IMG/VR virus record: IMGVR_UViG_2778261165_000015
Length of the DNA: 4,766 nt
Direction: 5' to 3' (one strand)
From: a virus
Taxonomy: Duplodnaviria > Heunggongvirae > Uroviricota > Caudoviricetes
In this document: positions 1 to 4,766 of the stretch, piece by piece
Numbering within the stretch: position 1 is the stretch's first letter
How the letters are laid out: the number at the start of each line of letters is the position of its first letter
Notes under the pieces: generated by a model
Database searches by the model: none
Told to the model about the DNA's origin: nothing
The model's input: the letters and a program-made list of their open reading frames with translations, nothing else
Made by a program: the position numbers and the translations under genes

Positions 1-110
1 TGGAGATCACTGAATAACAAAATGAGTCAAAAGTGATCTCCATCGATGTTATTCAGCGATCTGTTCAAATGTTATTACCCGATCTCGATGGAAGTTATTG
101 AGTGATCTCC
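1..110. repeat. Array of GATC-containing 15-bp repeats (consensus GTTATTnnnYGATCT): direct copies at 48-62, 71-85 and 94-108 phased at exactly 23 bp, one inverted copy at 4-18, and a 9-bp inverted repeat GGAGATCAC / GTGATCTCC at 2-10 / 33-41
   Basis: Read directly: gttattcagcgatct (48-62), gttattacccgatct (71-85), gttattgagtgatct (94-108); agatcactgaataac (4-18) is the reverse complement of the consensus. GATC at 5, 36, 58, 81 and 104. The 23-bp period is not a multiple of 3, so this is a DNA-level signal, not a protein repeat. Confidence 0.8.
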
Positions 111-1851
111 TTTCATGAAAATACGCATCTTTAGCTAACTCTGGTAATTTAGCTTGTGCTTCCATTCGTTCAGGTGTAGAAGCTAATCTCTCATAACCTG
201 CATAGATAGCACTACCAGCTAATAACATATTCATAGGGTTTAGTCTTGATGGTTTCCCATTCTTTCTATTCACGTTATCCGCTGTAGTATCAGCGACCTG
301 ACCTAATCTTGTGATAGCAGTCATAAGCCCGTAAATACTTCTGGTTACACCAACAACTTTATTCACAGCAATAACACCAGCCAAGACTTTTAAACTATTA
401 ATCAAGCCAGAACCTAAAGCATCAACAACTTTCTTTTGTTCATCGGTTAAACCACGGTAAGCCAATGTCACCTCATCAAAGAAACCTCTCACCTTGTAAG
501 AAATATCAGTCAATGAATCGACACCATGTGACATATCAGTCATCAAGCTACCAAGAGATTCACCAAGACTTTTACCACTTCCACCTAAACTGTTTAAAAG
601 CGTTGTTAGGCTTCTTGTGAAATCTTGAAGACCATTTTCAGAACCTCTGAAGATACTATCAAGCGTGGTATTCCAAGAGTTTTTCAGGTTCCCTAGTTGT
701 GCCTGAGTACTTTCTGAAATAGTTTTCCAGCCACCTTTAGCGGTGATTTGTTTATTCAGTTCCTGAGTGACCTTCTGAAGAGTATCGGCAGATTTTAAAG
801 CCCCCTTCTTCATGGCATCAAATAGCTCTTGTTCATTCCTTCCGATTGCTTTAGCGAATACCTGAACCATACCAGGAACAGCTTCAGCTAATTGCCCCTT
901 AAGCTCTTCAGCCATAACCTGACCCTTACCAGCCATCTGTGATAATGCTGTCAGTGCTCGCTTAATCTCTTCTTCACTTCTCCCCATCAGACGAGCATAG
1001 CCAATCATATTTTTAAAAAGTTCTTCAGAACCTTGAATGCCCATAGACTCTTTAGCTGAAGCACCAAAACCAGCAAACTGTGATTGCAGTTCAGCGATAT
1101 CTAAACCCGTTGTTTGAGCTAATGACTTTGTGAACTCTTTTACTTGAACTGCATCTTTATCAAATACGAAATCAATTGAACGTTCAGCACTTGCACGCTG
1201 TAAACCAATTTCCATAATCTTCTGATAACTGGCTAATACAGCCTGCATTGAGATAAATGCACCTGCTGTTTTAACTGCCGCTGAAGACAGGTTATCAAGA
1301 CTATTAGCTGCTCTGTCACCATTAATGCTGGTGGATGTATGACCTTTAGCTTTAGCAATTGCTTCTCTGACTGAAGCATTTAACTGAGCTAACTTCTCAT
1401 TGAATTTTGAAGAATCCATTGACCCAGCTTTAGCAGATAGCCCGTAAAACTGAGATTTGATGTATTTCTGCAAAATAGGGTCGAAGCCTTTCAGCTTGCT
1501 CATGTTAGCCTGATAAGCTGCTCTTACAGCTCGGTCACCAGTATTTACTCTTGGCTGTCTTGGCTGTCTAAGTGGCTTTAAAGTATCCTCAATTTCCGTT
1601 TTAATCTTAAACGCTTTAGTGTTTTTAAGACGCTGCTCAATCTTGGAAACAGTTTTATCGACATTCTTTTCCATTAGTTTGAGAGAATCATTTAAAGGCG
1701 TAGGATTCACTTTAAACGCCTTATTCAATCGCTTCTCAATTCGTGATGCTACCTGCATCGTTTGTTTCTCGGCTTTTTCCAGACCTTTTAAAACTTTCTG
1801 AGAGTTAAAACTTAACTCAATCAGAAAATCATCAACTTTAAACTGTGCCAT
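49..1851 (-). CDS. Phage tail tape measure protein, lambda gpH-like (600 aa)
   Basis: 600-aa ORF with TAA stop at 49-51. N-terminus MAQFKVDDFLIELSF resembles the lambda H N-terminus as I recall it (MAEPVGDLVVDLSL). Central segment ALTALSQMAGKGQVMAEELKGQLAEAVPGMVQVFAKAIG matches the tape-measure-domain signature from memory. Helical, Ala/Leu/Lys/Gln-rich composition and a hydrophobic C-terminal stretch fit the family. SD AAGAGGTG lies 11 nt upstream of the ATG; an in-frame TGA two codons upstream fixes the start. Not verified by search. Confidence 0.75.
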   Translation of the reverse strand: MAQFKVDDFLIELSFNSQKVLKGLEKAEKQTMQVASRIEKRLNKAFKVNPTPLNDSLKLMEKNVDKTVSKIEQRLKNTKAFKIKTEIEDTLKPLRQPRQPRVNTGDRAVRAAYQANMSKLKGFDPILQKYIKSQFYGLSAKAGSMDSSKFNEKLAQLNASVREAIAKAKGHTSTSINGDRAANSLDNLSSAAVKTAGAFISMQAVLASYQKIMEIGLQRASAERSIDFVFDKDAVQVKEFTKSLAQTTGLDIAELQSQFAGFGASAKESMGIQGSEELFKNMIGYARLMGRSEEEIKRALTALSQMAGKGQVMAEELKGQLAEAVPGMVQVFAKAIGRNEQELFDAMKKGALKSADTLQKVTQELNKQITAKGGWKTISESTQAQLGNLKNSWNTTLDSIFRGSENGLQDFTRSLTTLLNSLGGSGKSLGESLGSLMTDMSHGVDSLTDISYKVRGFFDEVTLAYRGLTDEQKKVVDALGSGLINSLKVLAGVIAVNKVVGVTRSIYGLMTAITRLGQVADTTADNVNRKNGKPSRLNPMNMLLAGSAIYAGYERLASTPERMEAQAKLPELAKDAYFHERRSLNNFHRDRVITFEQIAE

Positions 1852-1879
1852 TGTTCATATTTCACCTCTTTAAGCGTGA

Positions 1880-1934
1880 GCTACGTAAAAAATAATTTTT
1901 GGTGGGTATATCTGTTCAGAAGATTTCACGTAGC
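1880..1934 (-). promoter_or_regulatory. Imperfect 11-bp inverted repeat (GCTACGTRAAA) enclosing 33 bp, in the 5' untranslated region just upstream of the tape measure RBS
   Basis: gctacgtaaaa at 1880-1890 and tttcacgtagc at 1924-1934 (10/11 complementary). Would form an 11-bp stem with one G-U pair in the minus-strand RNA, or act as a palindromic operator in DNA. Confidence 0.4.
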
Positions 1935-1961
1935 ACATAGGATTCGATAGAAGACTATCTC

Positions 1962-2010
1962 ATATACAAAAAAGGGAGAAACTACCGATATCACTCGATA
2001 ATCTCTCCCG
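1962..2010 (-). terminator. Rho-independent terminator downstream of the 69-aa gene
   Basis: Minus-strand RNA reads GGGAGAG...UUCUCCC (stem from 1974-1979 / 2004-2009, with an inner UAUC/GAUA helix) followed immediately by UUUUUUGUAU (A-run 1968-1973 on plus). Sits ~25 nt after the stop of the 2034..2243 CDS. Confidence 0.6.
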
Positions 2011-2033
2011 TACTTTACCCAACCAATTCTTTT

Positions 2034-2243
2034 TTAATGTCTGACAAGATAATGTAGTTCCGTTTCACCTATGACTTGAGCATCAGAAGGAATACGGTCA
2101 ATACACCACTTTGGAATCTTGCGTGTTTTTGGTTTGCGTGAGGTGATAACTTGACGTTTGTTTTTAATTCTTAAGGCTGGATTGGCTTGTAACTTTAAGT
2201 TTTCACAAACAGACCGAATAGTCTCTAAACGTTCTTCAAACAT
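2034..2243 (-). CDS. Hypothetical small basic protein (69 aa)
   Basis: ORF with a strong SD (AAGAGGTG, 4-nt spacer, ATG). Lys/Arg-rich centre (RIKNKRQVITSRKPKTRKIPKW). Same frame as the upstream gene, separated by TGA and its own SD, so not a frameshift product. No family recognised. Confidence 0.6.
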   Translation of the reverse strand: MFEERLETIRSVCENLKLQANPALRIKNKRQVITSRKPKTRKIPKWCIDRIPSDAQVIGETELHYLVRH

Positions 2244-2267
2244 TAATCACCTCTTCTTAATTCATAA

Positions 2268-2978
2268 TCAAAGTGCTTTGCTGTATTTCTGAGAAATCTT
2301 AGTAAGCTGCTCAATATCAGCCTGCATAGCAATCTTCTTCTGTGATTCATATTCACTAATAATCGCTTTCATGCTATCAAGTTCTTTTTTAAGCTTTTGC
2401 TTTAACTTATCCAGCTTATCGGAGTAATGCTTAGTCAGATTAGCTTCAGCTAGCTGAAGAATCTCTTCATCTGTTTTATCAGTCATCAGAACAAATTGAC
2501 CAGAACCCCTTAATGCTTGTCTGACATCAATTAACCGGAACCCTTCAGGGATACTTTGAAGAACTTTAGGAACGTCTTCAATCGCTGTACCAAAACCATC
2601 ATTAAAGTTCCCTTCATAATAGATAAACGGGTTTGACTTAATCTCGTAAGCAATATCATATTCTGAAGGTTTCGAGGTTTCTTCGAAGTTCTTAACAGCA
2701 TCGTAAGCAATATCAAGTCTAAGACGCTGTGATTTTAAAGCTGGGTAATATTCACGCTCAAGATTAAATAGTGCTTCACTTTTGCAGATATCTGGCATTT
2801 CTTGAGGTTCAGGAGACACAAAGGTAATTTCCTTTGGTGACATCTTTAGCGATTGCTCAAGCTTAATTCTTTCATCGTGTTCTTTACGCTGAATAGCGAT
2901 AGCTGGATGTTCAGTCGTTGGTGACCAGTCACCGAAGCTATCAATCACTTTGCCATTAATGTAAATATCGTTTGTCAT
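2268..2978 (-). CDS. Hypothetical protein (236 aa) with a C-terminal coiled-coil-like region
   Basis: ORF with SD GAGG 9 nt upstream of the ATG. C-terminal ~60 residues are heptad-like and K/E/L/Q-rich (KLDKLKQKLKKELDSMKAIISEYESQKKIAMQADIEQL). No recognisable catalytic motif. Confidence 0.7.
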   Translation of the reverse strand: MTNDIYINGKVIDSFGDWSPTTEHPAIAIQRKEHDERIKLEQSLKMSPKEITFVSPEPQEMPDICKSEALFNLEREYYPALKSQRLRLDIAYDAVKNFEETSKPSEYDIAYEIKSNPFIYYEGNFNDGFGTAIEDVPKVLQSIPEGFRLIDVRQALRGSGQFVLMTDKTDEEILQLAEANLTKHYSDKLDKLKQKLKKELDSMKAIISEYESQKKIAMQADIEQLTKISQKYSKAL

Positions 2979-3003
2979 TATTTTTTTCCTCTAAGTGTGG
3001 TTA

Positions 3004-3081
3004 TTTCTTAATAGAGCACCTTCAACGCCAATACACTTAGAAGATGACTTAACGATTTATTAAAGATGCTCTATTAAGAAA
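3004..3081. repeat. Perfect 15-bp inverted repeat (TTTCTTAATAGAGCA) with arms at 3004-3018 and 3067-3081, 48-bp spacer
   Basis: Read directly; the reverse complement of 3067-3081 equals 3004-3018 exactly. Lies between hairpin H1 and the RBS of the 236-aa gene. Confidence 0.75.
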
Positions 3082-3110
3082 AGCCCTAAACATAATCTGT
3101 GAAGGGCTTT
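3071..3110 (-). terminator. Terminator-like hairpin H1 (AAAGCCCT / AGGGCTTT stem, 15-nt loop) followed by UUUUCUU on the minus strand
   Basis: Stem 3080-3087 / 3103-3110. The U-tract overlaps one arm of the 15-bp inverted repeat. Short stem, so termination is likely partial. Confidence 0.4.
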
Positions 3111-3170
3111 GAAGGTTTGCTTTATAACGTTAACGAAGTTTCAGGAAAAACTTTCTTTAAAAGCTCTGTT

Positions 3171-3209
3171 TAAAAACTCTTAAAGAAAGCCCTAATCATG
3201 AGTTAGGGC
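3171..3209 (-). terminator. Rho-independent terminator H2 (GCCCTAA / TTAGGGC stem, 7-nt loop) followed by UUUCUUUAAGAGUUUUU
   Basis: Perfect 7-bp stem at 3189-3195 / 3203-3209 with a U-rich tract on the minus strand. Shares the AAGAAA(A)GCCCTAA module with H1. Confidence 0.55.
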
Positions 3210-3255
3210 AAAGCTGTAAAGGATTCAAACGAATGAACAAAGACTTTTTGAGATA

Positions 3256-3280
3256 GCCTCTCAAGTTATATAAGAGAGGC
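3256..3280 (-). other. Stem-loop H3 (GCCTCTC / GAGAGGC, 11-nt loop) within the leader; no adjacent U-tract
   Basis: Perfect 7-bp inverted repeat read directly; flanks are not U-rich on either strand, so probably not a terminator. Confidence 0.4.
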
Positions 3281-3377
3281 CATGACGAAAAGCATTGCAC
3301 CTTTCCAACTCAGAATATCCATCCATCGGATTATTGAAAATATGATTTTAGGAAAAATTGCTCTTCCTATATATACA

Positions 3378-3406
3378 ATTATGTCATGCTCAAGGTTATT
3401 TGTCAA
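3378..3406 (-). promoter_or_regulatory. Near-consensus sigma70-type promoter: -35 TTGACA, 17-bp spacer, extended -10 TGaCATAAT
   Basis: Minus strand reads gctgTTGACAaataaccttgagcaTGaCATAATtgtatat. -35 is 6/6, spacer 17, -10 is 5/6 with a TG at -15/-14. Predicted start site near 3371, transcribing toward the terminators and the 236-aa gene. Confidence 0.55.
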
Positions 3407-3431
3407 CAGCTTTTAACAGATTGATAACAAT

Positions 3432-3497
3432 CTATACTTTAATAGACGCACCTGCAATCATACCAACCAATACAAAACAGATAATCACCAATTCCAT
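3432..3497 (-). CDS. Candidate 21-aa hydrophobic micro-protein (MELVIICFVLVGMIAGASIKV), a single predicted transmembrane helix
   Basis: Not in the supplied ORF track (too short). ATG overlaps the upstream TAA stop (TAATG). SD AAGGTGG sits 7 nt upstream. A 17-residue uninterrupted hydrophobic core is flanked by E and K. TAG stop at 3432-3434. Confidence 0.4.
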   Translation of the reverse strand: MELVIICFVLVGMIAGASIKV

Positions 3498-3820
3498 TAA
3501 TGCACCACCTTCGAATCCGTCACCAAAATATTGTCAGCGTACAAAATTGCTATAGCTGCCTTGAGATATCTTTCAGGGCTAACGCTGTATTTGTTCGTTT
3601 GCTCAATAACCAATCTTTTCATATTACTGTCTGTAATTGGTAACATCATTCGAGGCTCGTTAAACTCCACCGAGTGAATAAAGTCAGAGATGCTTTCCGC
3701 ATTATCAGCCATTAACTCTAACAACTTATCAAAGTCAATGCTAACACCTACATCAGTGAAAGCCTGAATCATCATGGCGGTGTCGGTATCAATAAAAATC
3801 TGTAGTGGGAAATTATTCAT
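3497..3820 (-). CDS. Hypothetical protein (107 aa from ATG 3820; the track's longer 144-aa form starts at 3931)
   Basis: ATG at 3820 has an AGGA SD with 8-nt spacing. The extra 37 codons upstream (3821-3931) are GC-richer with atypical codons (CCG, CTC, AGG), lack a good SD and overlap an inverted repeat, so the shorter start is preferred. No cysteines, no recognised motif. Confidence 0.55.
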   Translation of the reverse strand: MNNFPLQIFIDTDTAMMIQAFTDVGVSIDFDKLLELMADNAESISDFIHSVEFNEPRMMLPITDSNMKRLVIEQTNKYSVSPERYLKAAIAILYADNILVTDSKVVH

Positions 3821-3899
3821 TTTTAAAATCCTATAAAAACACATCTTAAATCTGCCAAAATAACCATTCTGAGGCCAGTAACCATGCGGGTTACAGAGG

Positions 3900-3946
3900 G
3901 AGTGAGACACCTTAGTAATAGGGTAGCTCATCTTTGAGTCTCACTC
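3900..3946. repeat. 9-bp inverted repeat GAGTGAGAC / GTCTCACTC with a 29-bp spacer, between the 128-aa and 107-aa genes
   Basis: 3900-3908 and 3938-3946 are exact reverse complements. No U-tract follows, so it looks like an operator or RNA structure rather than a terminator. Confidence 0.45.
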
Positions 3947-3958
3947 ATTCTCACAGAC

Positions 3959-4345
3959 TTACACAGACGCTTTAATCTTGTAGTATTGACTACGTGATAA
4001 GCCGTATTTCTCAGAAATATAACTTTGTGATTGTCCTTTGGTGATTGCATCAATGATTAAATCTTTATCGTATCTGTTACCGTTGGCTTTGTGCTTGTCA
4101 CTATTTTTAATAGAGTTGAAGTTCTCCATTAATTCAATGGCGTCTTTAAGGTCGCTTTCGTAAGCATAATCAAAACCTCTGATAAACTCGAAATCACCAT
4201 TATCTTTTTGTGCTTCAGCCCAGATATCAAATCTTGAGGCTAATTGCTGGTGGGTAAACTTGGGTTTATTGGTTTGTGTTACGTCTTTCCAGACTTTACC
4301 GTCAAATCTTACCAAATGGTCACGATGTTTATAAAAGTCATACAT
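3959..4345 (-). CDS. Hypothetical DNA-binding protein (128 aa) with a C-terminal resolvase/Hin-type helix-turn-helix
   Basis: Strong SD GGAGG 4 nt before the ATG, which overlaps the upstream stop (TAATG). C-terminus KGQSQSYISEKYGLSRSQYYKIK resembles the Hin/Gin recombinase HTH (GIGVSTLYRYF pattern). The ~95-aa N-terminal part is too short and lacks the serine-recombinase catalytic signature. Confidence 0.7.
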   Translation of the reverse strand: MYDFYKHRDHLVRFDGKVWKDVTQTNKPKFTHQQLASRFDIWAEAQKDNGDFEFIRGFDYAYESDLKDAIELMENFNSIKNSDKHKANGNRYDKDLIIDAITKGQSQSYISEKYGLSRSQYYKIKASV

Positions 4346-4581
4346 TAAACCTCCATCGCTAATTTGTGAATTTTGATACTTAGTAACCTTGCTAAATCCA
4401 GTCCAAAAGCATTTAAAGATTTCAGACTATCAAGGTCATCTTTCTTAATCCTGACATGGTGTCTTGCTGCCTCTAAACGACTATTAAGCAAATCCTGCTC
4501 GTTAATATCACGGTTAATTGCAAGCTTCATCACTGCTGAGTGCTGAGAGATCCCCTCATAATTTCCCCAAAGCGTAACCAT
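4345..4581 (-). CDS. Hypothetical protein (78 aa as drawn; start uncertain)
   Basis: ORF whose stop overlaps the start of the 128-aa gene. No convincing SD before ATG 4581 or the internal GTG/ATG at codons 17/18. The first 26 nt overlap the upstream partial ORF. Confidence 0.45.
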   Translation of the reverse strand: MVTLWGNYEGISQHSAVMKLAINRDINEQDLLNSRLEAARHHVRIKKDDLDSLKSLNAFGLDLARLLSIKIHKLAMEV

Positions 4582-4766
4582 GTGTGAATAAATTTTGAGC
4601 TAGTAGGGTTGCAGCCACGAGTAAGTCTTCCCTTGTTATTGTGTAGCCAGAATGCCGCAAAACTTCCATGCCTAAGCGAACTGTTGAGAGTACGTTTCGA
4701 TTTCTGACTGTGTTAGCCTGGAAGTGCTTGTCCCAACCTTGTTTCTGAGCATGAACGCCCGCAAGC
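4556..4766 (-). CDS. 3' end of a gene whose 5' part lies beyond the window (69 codons visible, C-terminus ...LFTHGYALGKL)
   Basis: Stop-free minus-strand frame from the window edge to TGA at 4556-4558, not in the supplied track because no start is in the window. GC content here is visibly higher (~47%) than the rest. Confidence 0.45.
   Translation of the reverse strand, partial: LAGVHAQKQGWDKHFQANTVRNRNVLSTVRLGMEVLRHSGYTITREDLLVAATLLAQNLFTHGYALGKL

What the first reader, a model, noticed from the sequence alone, without database searches (positions are those of the whole stretch)
1852..2033. Tape measure gene is set apart from upstream genes by a terminator and a structured 5' UTR
In lambda-like tail operons the tape measure gene directly follows the chaperone genes in one transcript. 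Here a clear intrinsic terminator follows the 69-aa gene, and an 11-bp imperfect inverted repeat sits just before the tape measure RBS, with no sigma70-like promoter evident. This implies a separately regulated unit, possibly with a phage-specific promoter or activator-dependent control. A 6-codon upstream ORF (MNNGTV) with optimal SD spacing overlaps the tape measure start and could couple its translation.
Basis: partly seen in the sequence, partly recalled or inferred. Interest (0 to 1): 0.45.

Follow-up and report, generated by a model that had tools for sequence, protein, structure and literature searches.

The report
Conserved terminator before tape measure gene
A real, evolutionarily conserved transcription terminator sits just upstream of a phage-type tape measure gene in a small E. 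coli chromosomal island; it most likely lowers expression of the downstream tail genes within one operon rather than marking a separate gene unit, which is an ordinary arrangement, although the island and a repeated 75-bp element around the gene are undescribed.

Summary
These are a 15-pair hairpin plus U-run (2009-1968), an 11-14 bp inverted repeat (1937-1924 / 1890-1877), no sigma70 promoter, and an out-of-frame upstream ATG (1858). In 60 distinct relatives the terminator is always present, in 22 sequence versions that all fold, with matched inner-stem arms. So it is functional.

In 18 relatives 35 nt or fewer (as few as 18) separate the U-run from the start codon, and no variant has a sigma70-like promoter there. 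A near-consensus promoter about 1.5 kb upstream is conserved. The general mechanism is therefore read-through of an internal terminator, not a private promoter.

The inverted repeat is not a structured UTR under RNA selection. It belongs to a ~75-bp module that is optional before the tape measure gene but constant after it. Its arms are invariant, its spacing is fixed, and it has an invariant TAnnnT hexamer with no -35. An activator-dependent promoter or a recombination linker remains possible.

The setting is not a lambda-like tail operon. It is a ~12-kb serine-recombinase island carrying Felix O1-like tape measure and Dit-like genes. The upstream 236-aa and 69-aa genes are not recognisable chaperones.

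The parts
2034..2243 (-). 69-aa gene directly upstream of the terminator. It encodes a small basic protein of unknown function, not a recognisable tail chaperone.
   Evidence: ORF list. There are 103 homologue clusters, all in Enterobacteriaceae and none named. AF2 gives pLDDT 79: helix 2-18, a disordered basic linker, and a small beta domain. No fold match with E<=0.001. No similarity to the phage 79-aa chaperone.
1966..2009 (-). Intrinsic terminator: a 15-pair hairpin (2009-1974) followed by TTTTTTGT.
   Evidence: dG -23.6, z -5.5. Present in 60/60 relatives as 22 distinct sequences that all fold. Cognate arms average -21.1 kcal/mol against -15.7 for swapped arms.
1946..1959 (-). Small optional hairpin cassette (GATAG-TCTT-CTATC). 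In other islands it lies before the terminator, after it, or on both sides.
1866..1940 (-). Conserved ~75-bp module. It contains the inverted repeat (arms 1937-1924 and 1890-1877), an A-tract, and a -10-like hexamer TATTTT (1894-1889). It is optional before the tape measure gene and constant after it.
1863..1868 (-). Shine-Dalgarno GAGGTG, shared by the upstream ATG and the tape measure ATG.
1838..1858 (-). Out-of-frame 6-codon upstream ORF (MNNGTV) overlapping the tape measure start.
   Evidence: kept in 54/60 variants, absent in 6, and a start-stop ATGTAATG in 2.
128..1851 (-). Tape measure gene, truncated at about codon 574 by an IS21-family element (window 1-127).
   Evidence: Pfam TMP_3 7e-20, phrog_4036 2e-76, TIGR02675. 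26-37% identical to Felixounavirus tape measure proteins. IS junction.
2268..2978 (-). 236-aa gene, first gene of the unit. Function unknown; often labelled 'transposase' with no domain support.
   Evidence: Only 18 cluster representatives among 1.84 billion proteins.
3378..3406 (-). Near-consensus sigma70 promoter TTGACA-17-CATAAT with an upstream TG. It is the likely source of the transcripts that reach the terminator.
   Evidence: 11/12, the best in the window. Conserved in 50/56 distinct relatives at a fixed position.
2996..3090 (-). Very stable leader hairpin (about 28 pairs) just upstream of the SD of the 236-aa gene.
   Evidence: dG -37.3, z -7.65. Conserved as a structure, with at least three unrelated arm sequences and many G.U pairs, in 48 variants.
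3189..3209 (-). Weaker terminator-like hairpin in the leader (GCCCTAACTCATGATTAGGGC + TTTCTTT).
   Evidence: dG -10.4. Present in most of the 56 relatives, in either orientation of the palindrome.

Best explanation
The hairpin plus U-run at 2009-1966 is a working intrinsic terminator placed inside a single transcription unit. Transcripts start at the conserved near-consensus promoter at 3406-3378 and cross a structured leader, the 236-aa gene and the 69-aa gene. Most then stop at this terminator. The fraction that reads through carries the tape measure gene and the Dit-like gene behind it. Those genes are translated from their own SD (GAGGTG), where an out-of-frame ATG at the better spacing competes with, or hands ribosomes on to, the tape measure ATG. 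The result is a step-down: high expression of the two upstream proteins and low expression of the low-copy tail proteins.

Shown: the terminator exists, is universal in the family and is kept by matched changes in both arms. In many relatives there is no room for a promoter between it and the start codon. The upstream promoter is conserved.

Inferred: that termination is partial, that the upstream promoter feeds it, and what the upstream ATG does. The inverted repeat is an accessory module, not part of this core mechanism.
For: - The terminator is strong and non-random.
- It is present in 60/60 distinct relatives spanning 42-93% tape measure identity, as 22 hairpin sequences with dG -15 to -22.
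- Arm-swap calculation: cognate arms -21.1 kcal/mol against -15.7 for non-cognate arms, and about -12 between classes.
- RNAalifold found 10 consensus pairs. None is broken apart from single-sequence mismatches at two pairs, and one pair has two-sided changes in 6 sequences.
- The U-run-to-ATG distance is 18-125 nt, and 18 variants have 35 nt or fewer.
- No sigma70-like promoter above shuffle expectation lies between the U-run and the ATG in any variant. None of 9/12 or better has a start site beyond the stem, even when the hairpin and 60 nt upstream are included.
- The promoter TTGACA-17-CATAAT is conserved in 50/56 relatives.
- All genes share one orientation with short gaps.
- Terminator strength is the same with or without the repeat module (-21.4 against -20.7, p=0.47), so the module does not replace read-through.
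- Phage garuso has a similar terminator (GGGGAGAC..GTCTTCCCC TTTTTTGT) after its tube gene, ahead of the chaperone and tape measure block. This shows the same step-down design in the relatives of these genes.
Against: - No transcript data exist. The efficiency of termination and the existence of read-through transcripts are inferred.
- A 15-pair hairpin with six U is expected to terminate efficiently, so passive read-through could be very low. That would favour an active antitermination step or a separate promoter.
- The leader upstream contains further terminator-like hairpins. This fits regulated antitermination as well as passive attenuation.
- In this window and in half of the relatives, a conserved module with an invariant -10-like hexamer lies between the terminator and the SD. 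It could supply transcripts independently.
Confidence: 0.5

Rival explanations
1. Terminator plus private promoter. The terminator insulates the tape measure gene. In islands that carry the ~75-bp module, including this one, the module is a promoter without a -35 that needs an activator. The invariant TAnnnT hexamer (TATTTT, 1894-1889) would be its -10, the start site would fall in the right arm, and the left arm (centre near -47) would be the activator site. The same module drives the gene after the tape measure gene.
For: - In 57 distinct copies, positions 1, 2 and 6 of the hexamer never vary while positions 3-5 do. This is the sigma70 -10 signature. An invariant A-tract precedes it, and no -35 lies 16-18 bp upstream.
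- The arms are conserved as sequence, not by compensation, and their spacing is 39 nt in 56/57 copies. That suits a protein-DNA site.
- The module always lies in gene orientation, upstream of a gene start: 8-9 nt before the tape measure SD and, after the tape measure gene, from about 10 to about 70 nt before the SD of the next gene.
- The island encodes a 128-aa protein with a C-terminal helix-turn-helix.
Against: - The module is missing before the tape measure gene in 30 of 60 variants, and those genes still need expression.
- The module and its half-sites are absent from Felixounavirus garuso and from the phage collection, so a helper-phage activator has no known sites of its own.
- A TAnnnT in AT-rich DNA is weak evidence by itself, and the best whole-promoter score equals shuffles.
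Confidence: 0.22
2. Regulated processive antitermination. The strong promoter at 3406-3378 is constitutive, and its transcripts normally end at the leader hairpins and at the terminator before the tape measure gene. A factor made on induction or phage infection lets RNA polymerase read through all of them, as lambda Q does at tR'.
For: - The layout is a near-consensus promoter followed about 170-200 nt later by a hairpin plus a T-rich run in most of the 56 relatives, then a second such motif, then the strong terminator before the tape measure gene.
- Many relatives have a hairpin at the predicted transcript 5' end.
- A strong internal terminator is easier to reconcile with a need for tail proteins if read-through is switched on.
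Against: - No antiterminator candidate was found. The 107-aa protein encoded just upstream of the promoter is acidic and has no Pfam, PHROG, NCBIfam or PDB match.
- The 69-aa basic protein has no informative fold match.
- No Rfam family (put, nut-like or other) matches the window.
- The leader hairpins are weak (dG -10.4 and -8.5; z -2.5 and -1.5).
Confidence: 0.15
3. RNA-level role of the inverted repeat. The stem, closing a 33-nt A/U-rich loop just before the SD, acts in the mRNA as a processing site, a 5' stabiliser, or a ribosome standby or enhancer element for the tape measure cistron.
For: - The stem is predicted in every module variant (dG -12 to -21) with z about -4.
- One pair alternates G.U and G.C, which only works on the coding strand.
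- The module ends 8-9 nt before the tape measure SD and about 10 nt before the SD of one class of downstream gene.
- A genuine RNA hairpin does precede the first gene of the unit.
Against: - There are zero compensatory substitutions in 57 copies, and every change outside the 7-8 invariant core pairs breaks a pair.
- The stem is too short (9-11 pairs) for a classical RNase III site.
- Before the tape measure gene it is dispensable in half of the family, and two variants have a 27-nt insertion splitting the left arm.
- The whole 5' region 1966-1845 does not fold better than shuffles (z -1.28).
Confidence: 0.08

Closest known systems
Internal (attenuating) intrinsic terminators in phage structural-gene operons, for example T7 T-phi after the major capsid gene (own knowledge) and the terminator after the tail tube gene of Felixounavirus garuso
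   Same: A strong hairpin plus U-run sits inside a co-oriented block of structural genes, directly ahead of low-copy tail genes, with no promoter after it. The garuso terminator even shares the GGGGAGA...TCCCC-TTTTTTGT outline.
   Different: Here it sits immediately before the tape measure gene. In the phage it precedes the chaperone genes. Here it follows two genes of unknown function rather than an abundant structural gene. The host element is a 12-kb chromosomal island, not a phage.
Lambda-type tail operon: G / G-T frameshift chaperones followed directly by the tape measure gene
   Same: A tape measure gene is preceded by two small or medium genes in the same orientation.
   Different: The upstream proteins show no similarity to chaperones. 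A 182-nt gap with a terminator separates them from the tape measure gene. In garuso the chaperone stop and the tape measure start overlap.
PeSL / PmSL mobile regulatory cassettes of T4-type phages (PMC2839356, PMC4122927)
   Same: Short conserved intergenic cassettes combine a stem-loop with promoter-like elements. They are repeated in direct orientation on both sides of variable genes and are associated with indels and gene swapping. PmSLs likewise have a -10 box without a -35. Here the tape measure gene, the most variable gene (42-93% identity), is bracketed by two module copies whose spacer types are swapped between islands.
   Different: PeSLs carry near-perfect sigma70 promoters or a MotA box, and neither is present here. 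The sequence is unrelated and the element is not a T4-type phage. Recombination at the module is inferred from mosaicism only.
Activator-dependent late promoters lacking a -35, as in phage Mu (Mor/C) and in P2/P4 (Ogr/delta) (own knowledge)
   Same: A -10-like hexamer, no -35, and a dyad-symmetric element upstream.
   Different: No Mor/C- or Ogr-like protein was found. The two arms are 45 bp apart and one overlaps the predicted start site, unlike a compact dyad at -43.5 or -55. No start site is known.
Lambda PR'-tR'-Q late antitermination
   Same: A strong promoter is followed within about 200 nt by a terminator-like hairpin, then a long operon with an internal terminator.
   Different: No Q-like protein or qut-like element was identified, and the leader hairpins are weak.

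Membership tests
Rho-independent (intrinsic) terminator | G+C-rich stem with a short loop, stable beyond chance | tested here: met
   15 pairs, 6 G-C, 6-nt loop, dG -23.6, z -5.5, 0 of 200 shuffles as stable.
Rho-independent (intrinsic) terminator | U-run directly after the stem, on the transcribed strand | tested here: met
   TTTTTTGT follows the stem on the minus (coding) strand. The other strand has no T-run after the hairpin. The run is T5-T8 in 60/60 relatives.
Rho-independent (intrinsic) terminator | Structure maintained in evolution (paired changes) | tested here: met
   22 distinct hairpins all fold. Arm swap gives -21.1 cognate against -15.7 non-cognate. One consensus pair has two-sided changes in 6 of 16 sequences; the only non-pairing cases are single sequences at two pairs.
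Rho-independent (intrinsic) terminator | Transcripts end at the U-run in vivo or in vitro | not testable with these tools
   No transcript data are available.
Sigma70 promoter within 1852-2033 | -35 and -10 hexamers 16-18 bp apart, total match above chance | tested here: not met
   No site of 9/12 or better. The best is 8/12, equal to shuffles. No site in 60 variants has a start beyond the hairpin.
Activator-dependent promoter of the Mu Mor/C type | -10 element present, -35 absent | tested here: met
   An invariant T-A-n-n-n-T in 57 module copies, with no conserved -35 at 16-18 bp.
Activator-dependent promoter of the Mu Mor/C type | Cognate activator of the Mor/C family encoded nearby | tested here: not met
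Activator-dependent promoter of the Mu Mor/C type | Mapped start site downstream of the -10 that depends on the activator | not testable with these tools
   Needs 5' end mapping.
Lambda-type tail assembly chaperone (G/GT) pair upstream of the tape measure gene | Upstream proteins belong to tail-chaperone families and abut the tape measure gene | tested here: not met
   No Pfam, PHROG or NCBIfam hit. No BLASTP similarity to the garuso chaperones. A 182-nt gap with a terminator intervenes.
Conserved RNA stem-loop (structured 5' UTR) | Base pairs kept by compensatory substitutions | tested here: not met
   The inverted repeat has 0 two-sided changes in 57 copies, and its flank changes break pairs. 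Region 1966-1845 has z -1.28. No Rfam match.
PeSL-type mobile regulatory cassette | Conserved cassette repeated in direct orientation on both sides of variable genes | tested here: met
   Copies lie at about -82 and just after the tape measure stop, in the same orientation, and their spacer types are exchanged between L001 and L002.
PeSL-type mobile regulatory cassette | Contains a near-consensus early sigma70 promoter (or a MotA box plus -10) next to a terminator stem-loop | tested here: not met
   Only a -10-like hexamer is present, with no -35 and no TGCTT box. The definition is taken from PMC4122927.
Translational coupling through an overlapping upstream ORF | Upstream ORF with its own SD whose stop lies at or next to the downstream start | tested here: inconclusive
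   The SD and spacing are met. The stop lies 10-12 nt after the tape measure ATG (14-17 nt in the three sequences whose protein starts MSKF) in 52 of the 54 variants that have the ATG, and only 2 have ATGTAATG. The ATG is kept in 54/60. In 5 variants it is absent and the tape measure ATG takes its place 4 nt after the SD.

The most novel reading that the evidence does not exclude
The interval may be the control region of an undescribed family of small mobile islands of Enterobacteriaceae. These islands are about 12 kb, carry a large serine recombinase, and here lie between tonB and yciI. They carry only two tail genes taken from virulent Felix O1-like phages: a fast-evolving tape measure protein and a Dit-like protein 71% identical to the phage's. 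In this reading the tail genes are kept silent behind a strong terminator, and the conserved 75-bp module with a -35-less promoter switches them on during infection. The island would then either poison or hijack the tail assembly of the infecting phage, as a defence element or as a satellite. The module copies bracketing the tape measure gene would also serve as exchange points for swapping tape measure alleles.
Probability: 0.15. Interest if true: 0.75.

Novelty: new variant of a known kind. Interest (0 to 1): 0.38.

Why it matters
The terminator by itself is a textbook device for lowering expression of downstream genes in an operon. Showing that it is conserved and that no promoter follows it corrects the idea of a separately regulated tape measure unit.

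What could matter more is the setting. A widespread chromosomal island carries just the tape measure and Dit-like genes of virulent Felix O1-like phages, with its own promoter, a structured leader, an internal terminator and a repeated regulatory or recombination module. The repeat module was found in 428 of 5426 complete E. coli genomes. Relatives of the island occur in Shigella, Citrobacter and E. albertii loci, and its small proteins also have homologues named from Salmonella, Kluyvera and E. fergusonii. If expression of these genes responds to infection, the island would be a new kind of phage parasite or defence element acting on tail assembly. The interval studied here would be the place to test that.

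Tried and rejected
- **Private sigma70 promoter.** I scanned the window, every variant from the U-run to the ATG against shuffles, and again with the hairpin and 60 nt upstream included. Nothing was found.
- **Known RNA family.** An Rfam scan of the whole window at E<=1 gave only a spurious miRNA hit at 2996-3094. That hit turned out to flag the long leader hairpin.
- **Inverted repeat as a multicopy mobile element (MITE).** Rejected. It occurs in 428/5426 E. coli genomes with a median of one place per genome, and the second place is the copy after the tape measure gene.
- **Module as a helper-phage promoter or operator.** There is no copy in the 85.8-kb garuso genome, the half-site occurs 6 times against about 2.6 expected, and blastn finds no match in 50,697 phage records. 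A gapped pattern scan of viral contigs gave mostly chance single hits.
- **236-aa and 69-aa proteins as tail chaperones.** No support from Pfam, PHROGs, NCBIfam, PADLOC, PDB sequences, tblastn against phages, or BLASTP against the garuso chaperones. An exhaustive HMMER search found only 18 cluster representatives for the 236-aa protein.
- **69-aa protein fold.** The model is reasonable (pLDDT 79) but there is no significant PDB match.
- **128-aa protein as a Mor-like activator.** Not supported.
- **107-aa protein as a Q-like antiterminator.** No hits; it is acidic.
- **Compensation between terminator and module.** Terminator strength is the same with and without the module.
- **Correlation of module presence with allele type.** By inspection, module presence did not follow the allele type of the 236-aa or 69-aa genes.
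- **MAFFT/RNAalifold alignment of the terminators.** It misaligned the inner stems, so covariation was assessed by arm swapping instead.
- **Literature.** Searches for a described satellite or island with these genes found nothing.

Full report
**Orientation and source**

All genes in the window lie on the minus strand. The 600-aa ORF runs 1851 to 49, the 69-aa gene is 2243-2034 and the 236-aa gene is 2978-2268. The finding's interval, 1852-2033, is exactly the gap between the 69-aa stop and the tape measure ATG.

An uninterrupted relative (strain 67-1, locus L002) shows the whole element. It is about 12 kb, lies between tonB and yciI, and has this gene order:
- a large serine recombinase;
- a Dit-like gene;
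- the tape measure gene (706 aa);
- a 71-aa gene;
- a 236-aa gene;
- a 530-bp non-coding region;
- genes of 107, 128, 93 and 184 aa;
- an HNH-AP2 endonuclease gene and a 221-aa gene.

**Identity of the genes**

The tape measure call is sound: Pfam TMP_3 7e-20, phrog_4036 2e-76 and TIGR02675. Its closest phage relatives are the tape measure proteins of Felix O1-like myoviruses, at 26-37% identity. The downstream Dit-like protein is 71% identical to the protein that follows the tape measure gene in Felixounavirus garuso.

The 236-aa and 69/71-aa proteins match nothing in Pfam, PHROGs, NCBIfam, PADLOC, PDB sequences or phage genomes. They also do not resemble the two garuso tape measure chaperones. 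An exhaustive HMMER search found only 18 cluster representatives for the 236-aa protein. The premise of a lambda-like operon with chaperone genes is therefore not met. In garuso the 79-aa chaperone gene ends ATGTAA and overlaps the tape measure ATG, with no gap.

**Check of the observation**

- **Terminator.** The hairpin GGGAGAGATTATCGA/GTGATA/TCGGTAGTTTCTCCC (2009-1974) plus TTTTTTGT has 15 pairs, dG -23.6 kcal/mol and z -5.5.
- **Inverted repeat.** The arms are 1937-1924 and 1890-1877, with 11 contiguous pairs, a 33-nt loop and z -3.96.
- **Promoter.** No sigma70-like promoter of 9/12 or better lies in the interval.
- **Upstream ORF.** ATG AAC AAT GGC ACA GTT TAA (1858-1838) starts 4 nt after GAGGTG. 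The tape measure ATG lies 11 nt after it.

**Comparative test**

I collected relatives from three sources: one genome per species, IMG/VR contigs and metagenomes. I used the protein itself and the conserved first 21 nt of the gene as queries. This gave 60 distinct upstream regions from genuine family members, spanning 42-93% tape measure identity.

The terminator is present in all 60. It comes in 22 different hairpin sequences, each folding to 13-17 pairs (dG -15 to -22) and each followed by T5-T8 and GTAT. The inner stem occurs in several mutually incompatible versions: ATCGA/TCGGT, AACC/GGTT, ATCTGGAT/ATCTAGGT and ATCTAGA/TCTGGAC. Joining the 5' arm of one class to the 3' arm of another lowers stability from a mean of -21.1 to -15.7 kcal/mol, and to about -12 between classes. 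RNAalifold, on an imperfect alignment, still found 10 consensus pairs. None is broken apart from single-sequence mismatches at two pairs, and one shows two-sided changes. The terminator is therefore under selection as a structure.

**What lies between the terminator and the start codon**

This stretch is a patchwork of optional cassettes, 18-125 nt long. In 18 variants 35 nt or fewer separate the U-run from the ATG, and the shortest read TTTTTT-GTATGAGGTGAAATATGAATGG. No variant has a sigma70-like promoter above shuffle expectation. None has a 9/12 promoter whose start site would fall beyond the stem, even when the hairpin and 60 nt upstream are included. For much of the family the tape measure gene can therefore only be transcribed through the terminator.

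The only strong promoter in the window is TTGACA-17-CATAAT with an upstream TG (3406-3378, 11/12). It is conserved at a fixed position in 50 of 56 distinct relatives. It is followed by a 5' hairpin in many relatives and by a hairpin plus T-rich run about 170-200 nt downstream in most. Just before the SD of the first gene lies a 25-30-pair hairpin, conserved as structure with at least three unrelated arm sequences and many G.U pairs.

The simplest reading is one unit: promoter, structured leader, 236-aa gene, 69-aa gene, terminator, tape measure gene, Dit-like gene. The terminator produces a step-down in expression. Phage garuso uses the same design, with a similar-looking terminator after its tube gene and ahead of the chaperone and tape measure block.

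**The inverted repeat**

The repeat is present before the tape measure gene in only 30 of 60 variants. It is not a multicopy element. Unexpectedly, the same ~75-bp module occurs a second time, in the same orientation, between the tape measure stop and the next gene. It is there in essentially every island with an intact tape measure gene, whichever of two unrelated gene types follows. The tape measure gene is thus bracketed by two direct copies. In L001 and L002 the two spacer types are exchanged between the two positions.

An alignment of 57 distinct copies shows these invariant features:
- CTACGTGA (left arm);
- an A-tract;
- ACGTA (right arm);
- GCTTAA;
- a hexamer TAnnnT (TATTTT, TAGAAT, TAGATT, TAATTT or TAGTTT) in which only positions 1, 2 and 6 are fixed.

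The stem shows no compensatory substitution. Seven core pairs never vary, one pair alternates G.T and G.C, and all other changes break pairs. The arm spacing is 39 nt in 56 of 57 copies. Two variants carry a 27-nt insertion in the left arm. This pattern points to a DNA site read by sequence, with fixed geometry, rather than to an RNA helix. It leaves open an activator-dependent promoter with a -10 but no -35.

The bracketing of the most variable gene by conserved cassettes recalls the PeSL and PmSL cassettes of T4-type phages (PMC4122927). The defining promoter part of those cassettes is missing here.

**The upstream ATG**

Across 12 different SD-to-start spacers, an out-of-frame ATG 3-7 nt after GAGGTG is kept in 54 of 60 variants, giving MNNGTV, MNGTV or M-stop. 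In five variants it is absent, and the tape measure ATG then sits 4 nt after the SD. One variant has ATA instead. The SD-proximal position is therefore always occupied by an ATG. Whether the short ORF lowers tape measure initiation by competition or passes ribosomes on cannot be decided from sequence. The start-stop form ATGTAATGG, seen in two variants, is identical to the chaperone/tape measure junction of garuso.

**Verdict**

The terminator is real, conserved and unusual in its position directly before a tape measure gene. However, it most likely acts as an internal attenuator of one promoter-driven unit (confidence about 0.5), not as the boundary of a unit with its own promoter. A module-borne activator-dependent promoter (0.22), regulated antitermination (0.15) and an RNA role for the repeat (0.08) remain as rivals, and they are not mutually exclusive.

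As a regulatory device this is a variant of a known kind. The undescribed island, with its Felix O1-like tail genes and bracketing module, is the more interesting lead. No paper describing it was found.

Noticed in passing
L002 11680-23600 (whole island); window 128-4552 is its middle part: The window comes from a ~12-kb, low-GC (38%) island between tonB and yciI with a large serine recombinase. Of its proteins, only the tape measure (about 30%), the Dit-like protein (71%) and the HNH-AP2 domain match virulent Felix O1-like phages. No PADLOC defence model matches and no paper describing it was found. It could be a satellite, a defence element or a remnant.
   Followed up: partly
L002 14078-14150 (+ strand coordinates); L001 7660-7730; not in the window, where the IS cuts it off: A second copy of the ~75-bp inverted-repeat module lies between the tape measure stop and the next gene in essentially all islands. 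The tape measure gene is therefore bracketed by direct repeats, and the spacer types are swapped between L001 and L002.
   Followed up: yes
window 2996-3090 (-): A very stable hairpin of about 28 pairs (dG -37.3, z -7.7) ends about 10 nt before the SD of the 236-aa gene. It is conserved as structure in 48 variants, with at least three unrelated arm sequences and many G.U pairs. It is a candidate RNase III site or translational control element.
   Followed up: partly
window 3378-3406 (-) and 3189-3209 (-): A near-consensus sigma70 promoter is conserved in 50/56 relatives. A hairpin plus T-rich run follows about 170-200 nt downstream, and the hairpin occurs in both orientations of its palindrome. 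The layout resembles lambda PR'-tR' and could yield a short leader RNA.
   Followed up: partly
window 1-127: This is the outer 127 nt of an IS21-family element (ISEc12), with its terminus TGCGTATT... at position 127, joined to tape measure codon ~574. The 600-aa ORF therefore ends in 26 IS-derived codons. In the closest genome (L001) the same IS sits at the tape measure stop, in the other orientation, and an IS3-family element is inserted at window position 1218/1219.
   Followed up: yes
window 4553-4766: An IS10/ISVsa5 end truncates the 93-aa gene of the island. The 78-aa ORF at 4345-4581 runs into it.
   Followed up: partly
window 2268-2978 (-): The 236-aa protein is labelled 'transposase' in many NCBI records. 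It has no transposase domain and no Pfam or NCBIfam hit, so the label looks like a propagated misannotation. The family is narrow: 18 cluster representatives among 1.84 billion proteins.
   Followed up: partly
window 3432-3497 (-): A 21-codon hydrophobic ORF (MELVIICFVLVGMIAGASIKV) starts at a TAATG overlap with the stop of the 107-aa gene. It may encode a small membrane peptide.
   Followed up: no
L002 19681-19745: Back-to-back strong promoter-like sites (TTGACA-17-TAGTAT on the minus strand, TTAACA-18-TATAAT on the plus strand) lie between the 184-aa gene and a divergent 62-aa gene. This looks like the island's regulatory switch region.
   Followed up: no
window 1946-1959 (-); L013, L088 and others: A small hairpin cassette (GAGATAG..CTATCGAATC) is found before the terminator in 17 variants and after it in 13. 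In two variants it lies on both sides. This suggests that small hairpin cassettes are shuffled in this intergenic region.
   Followed up: partly
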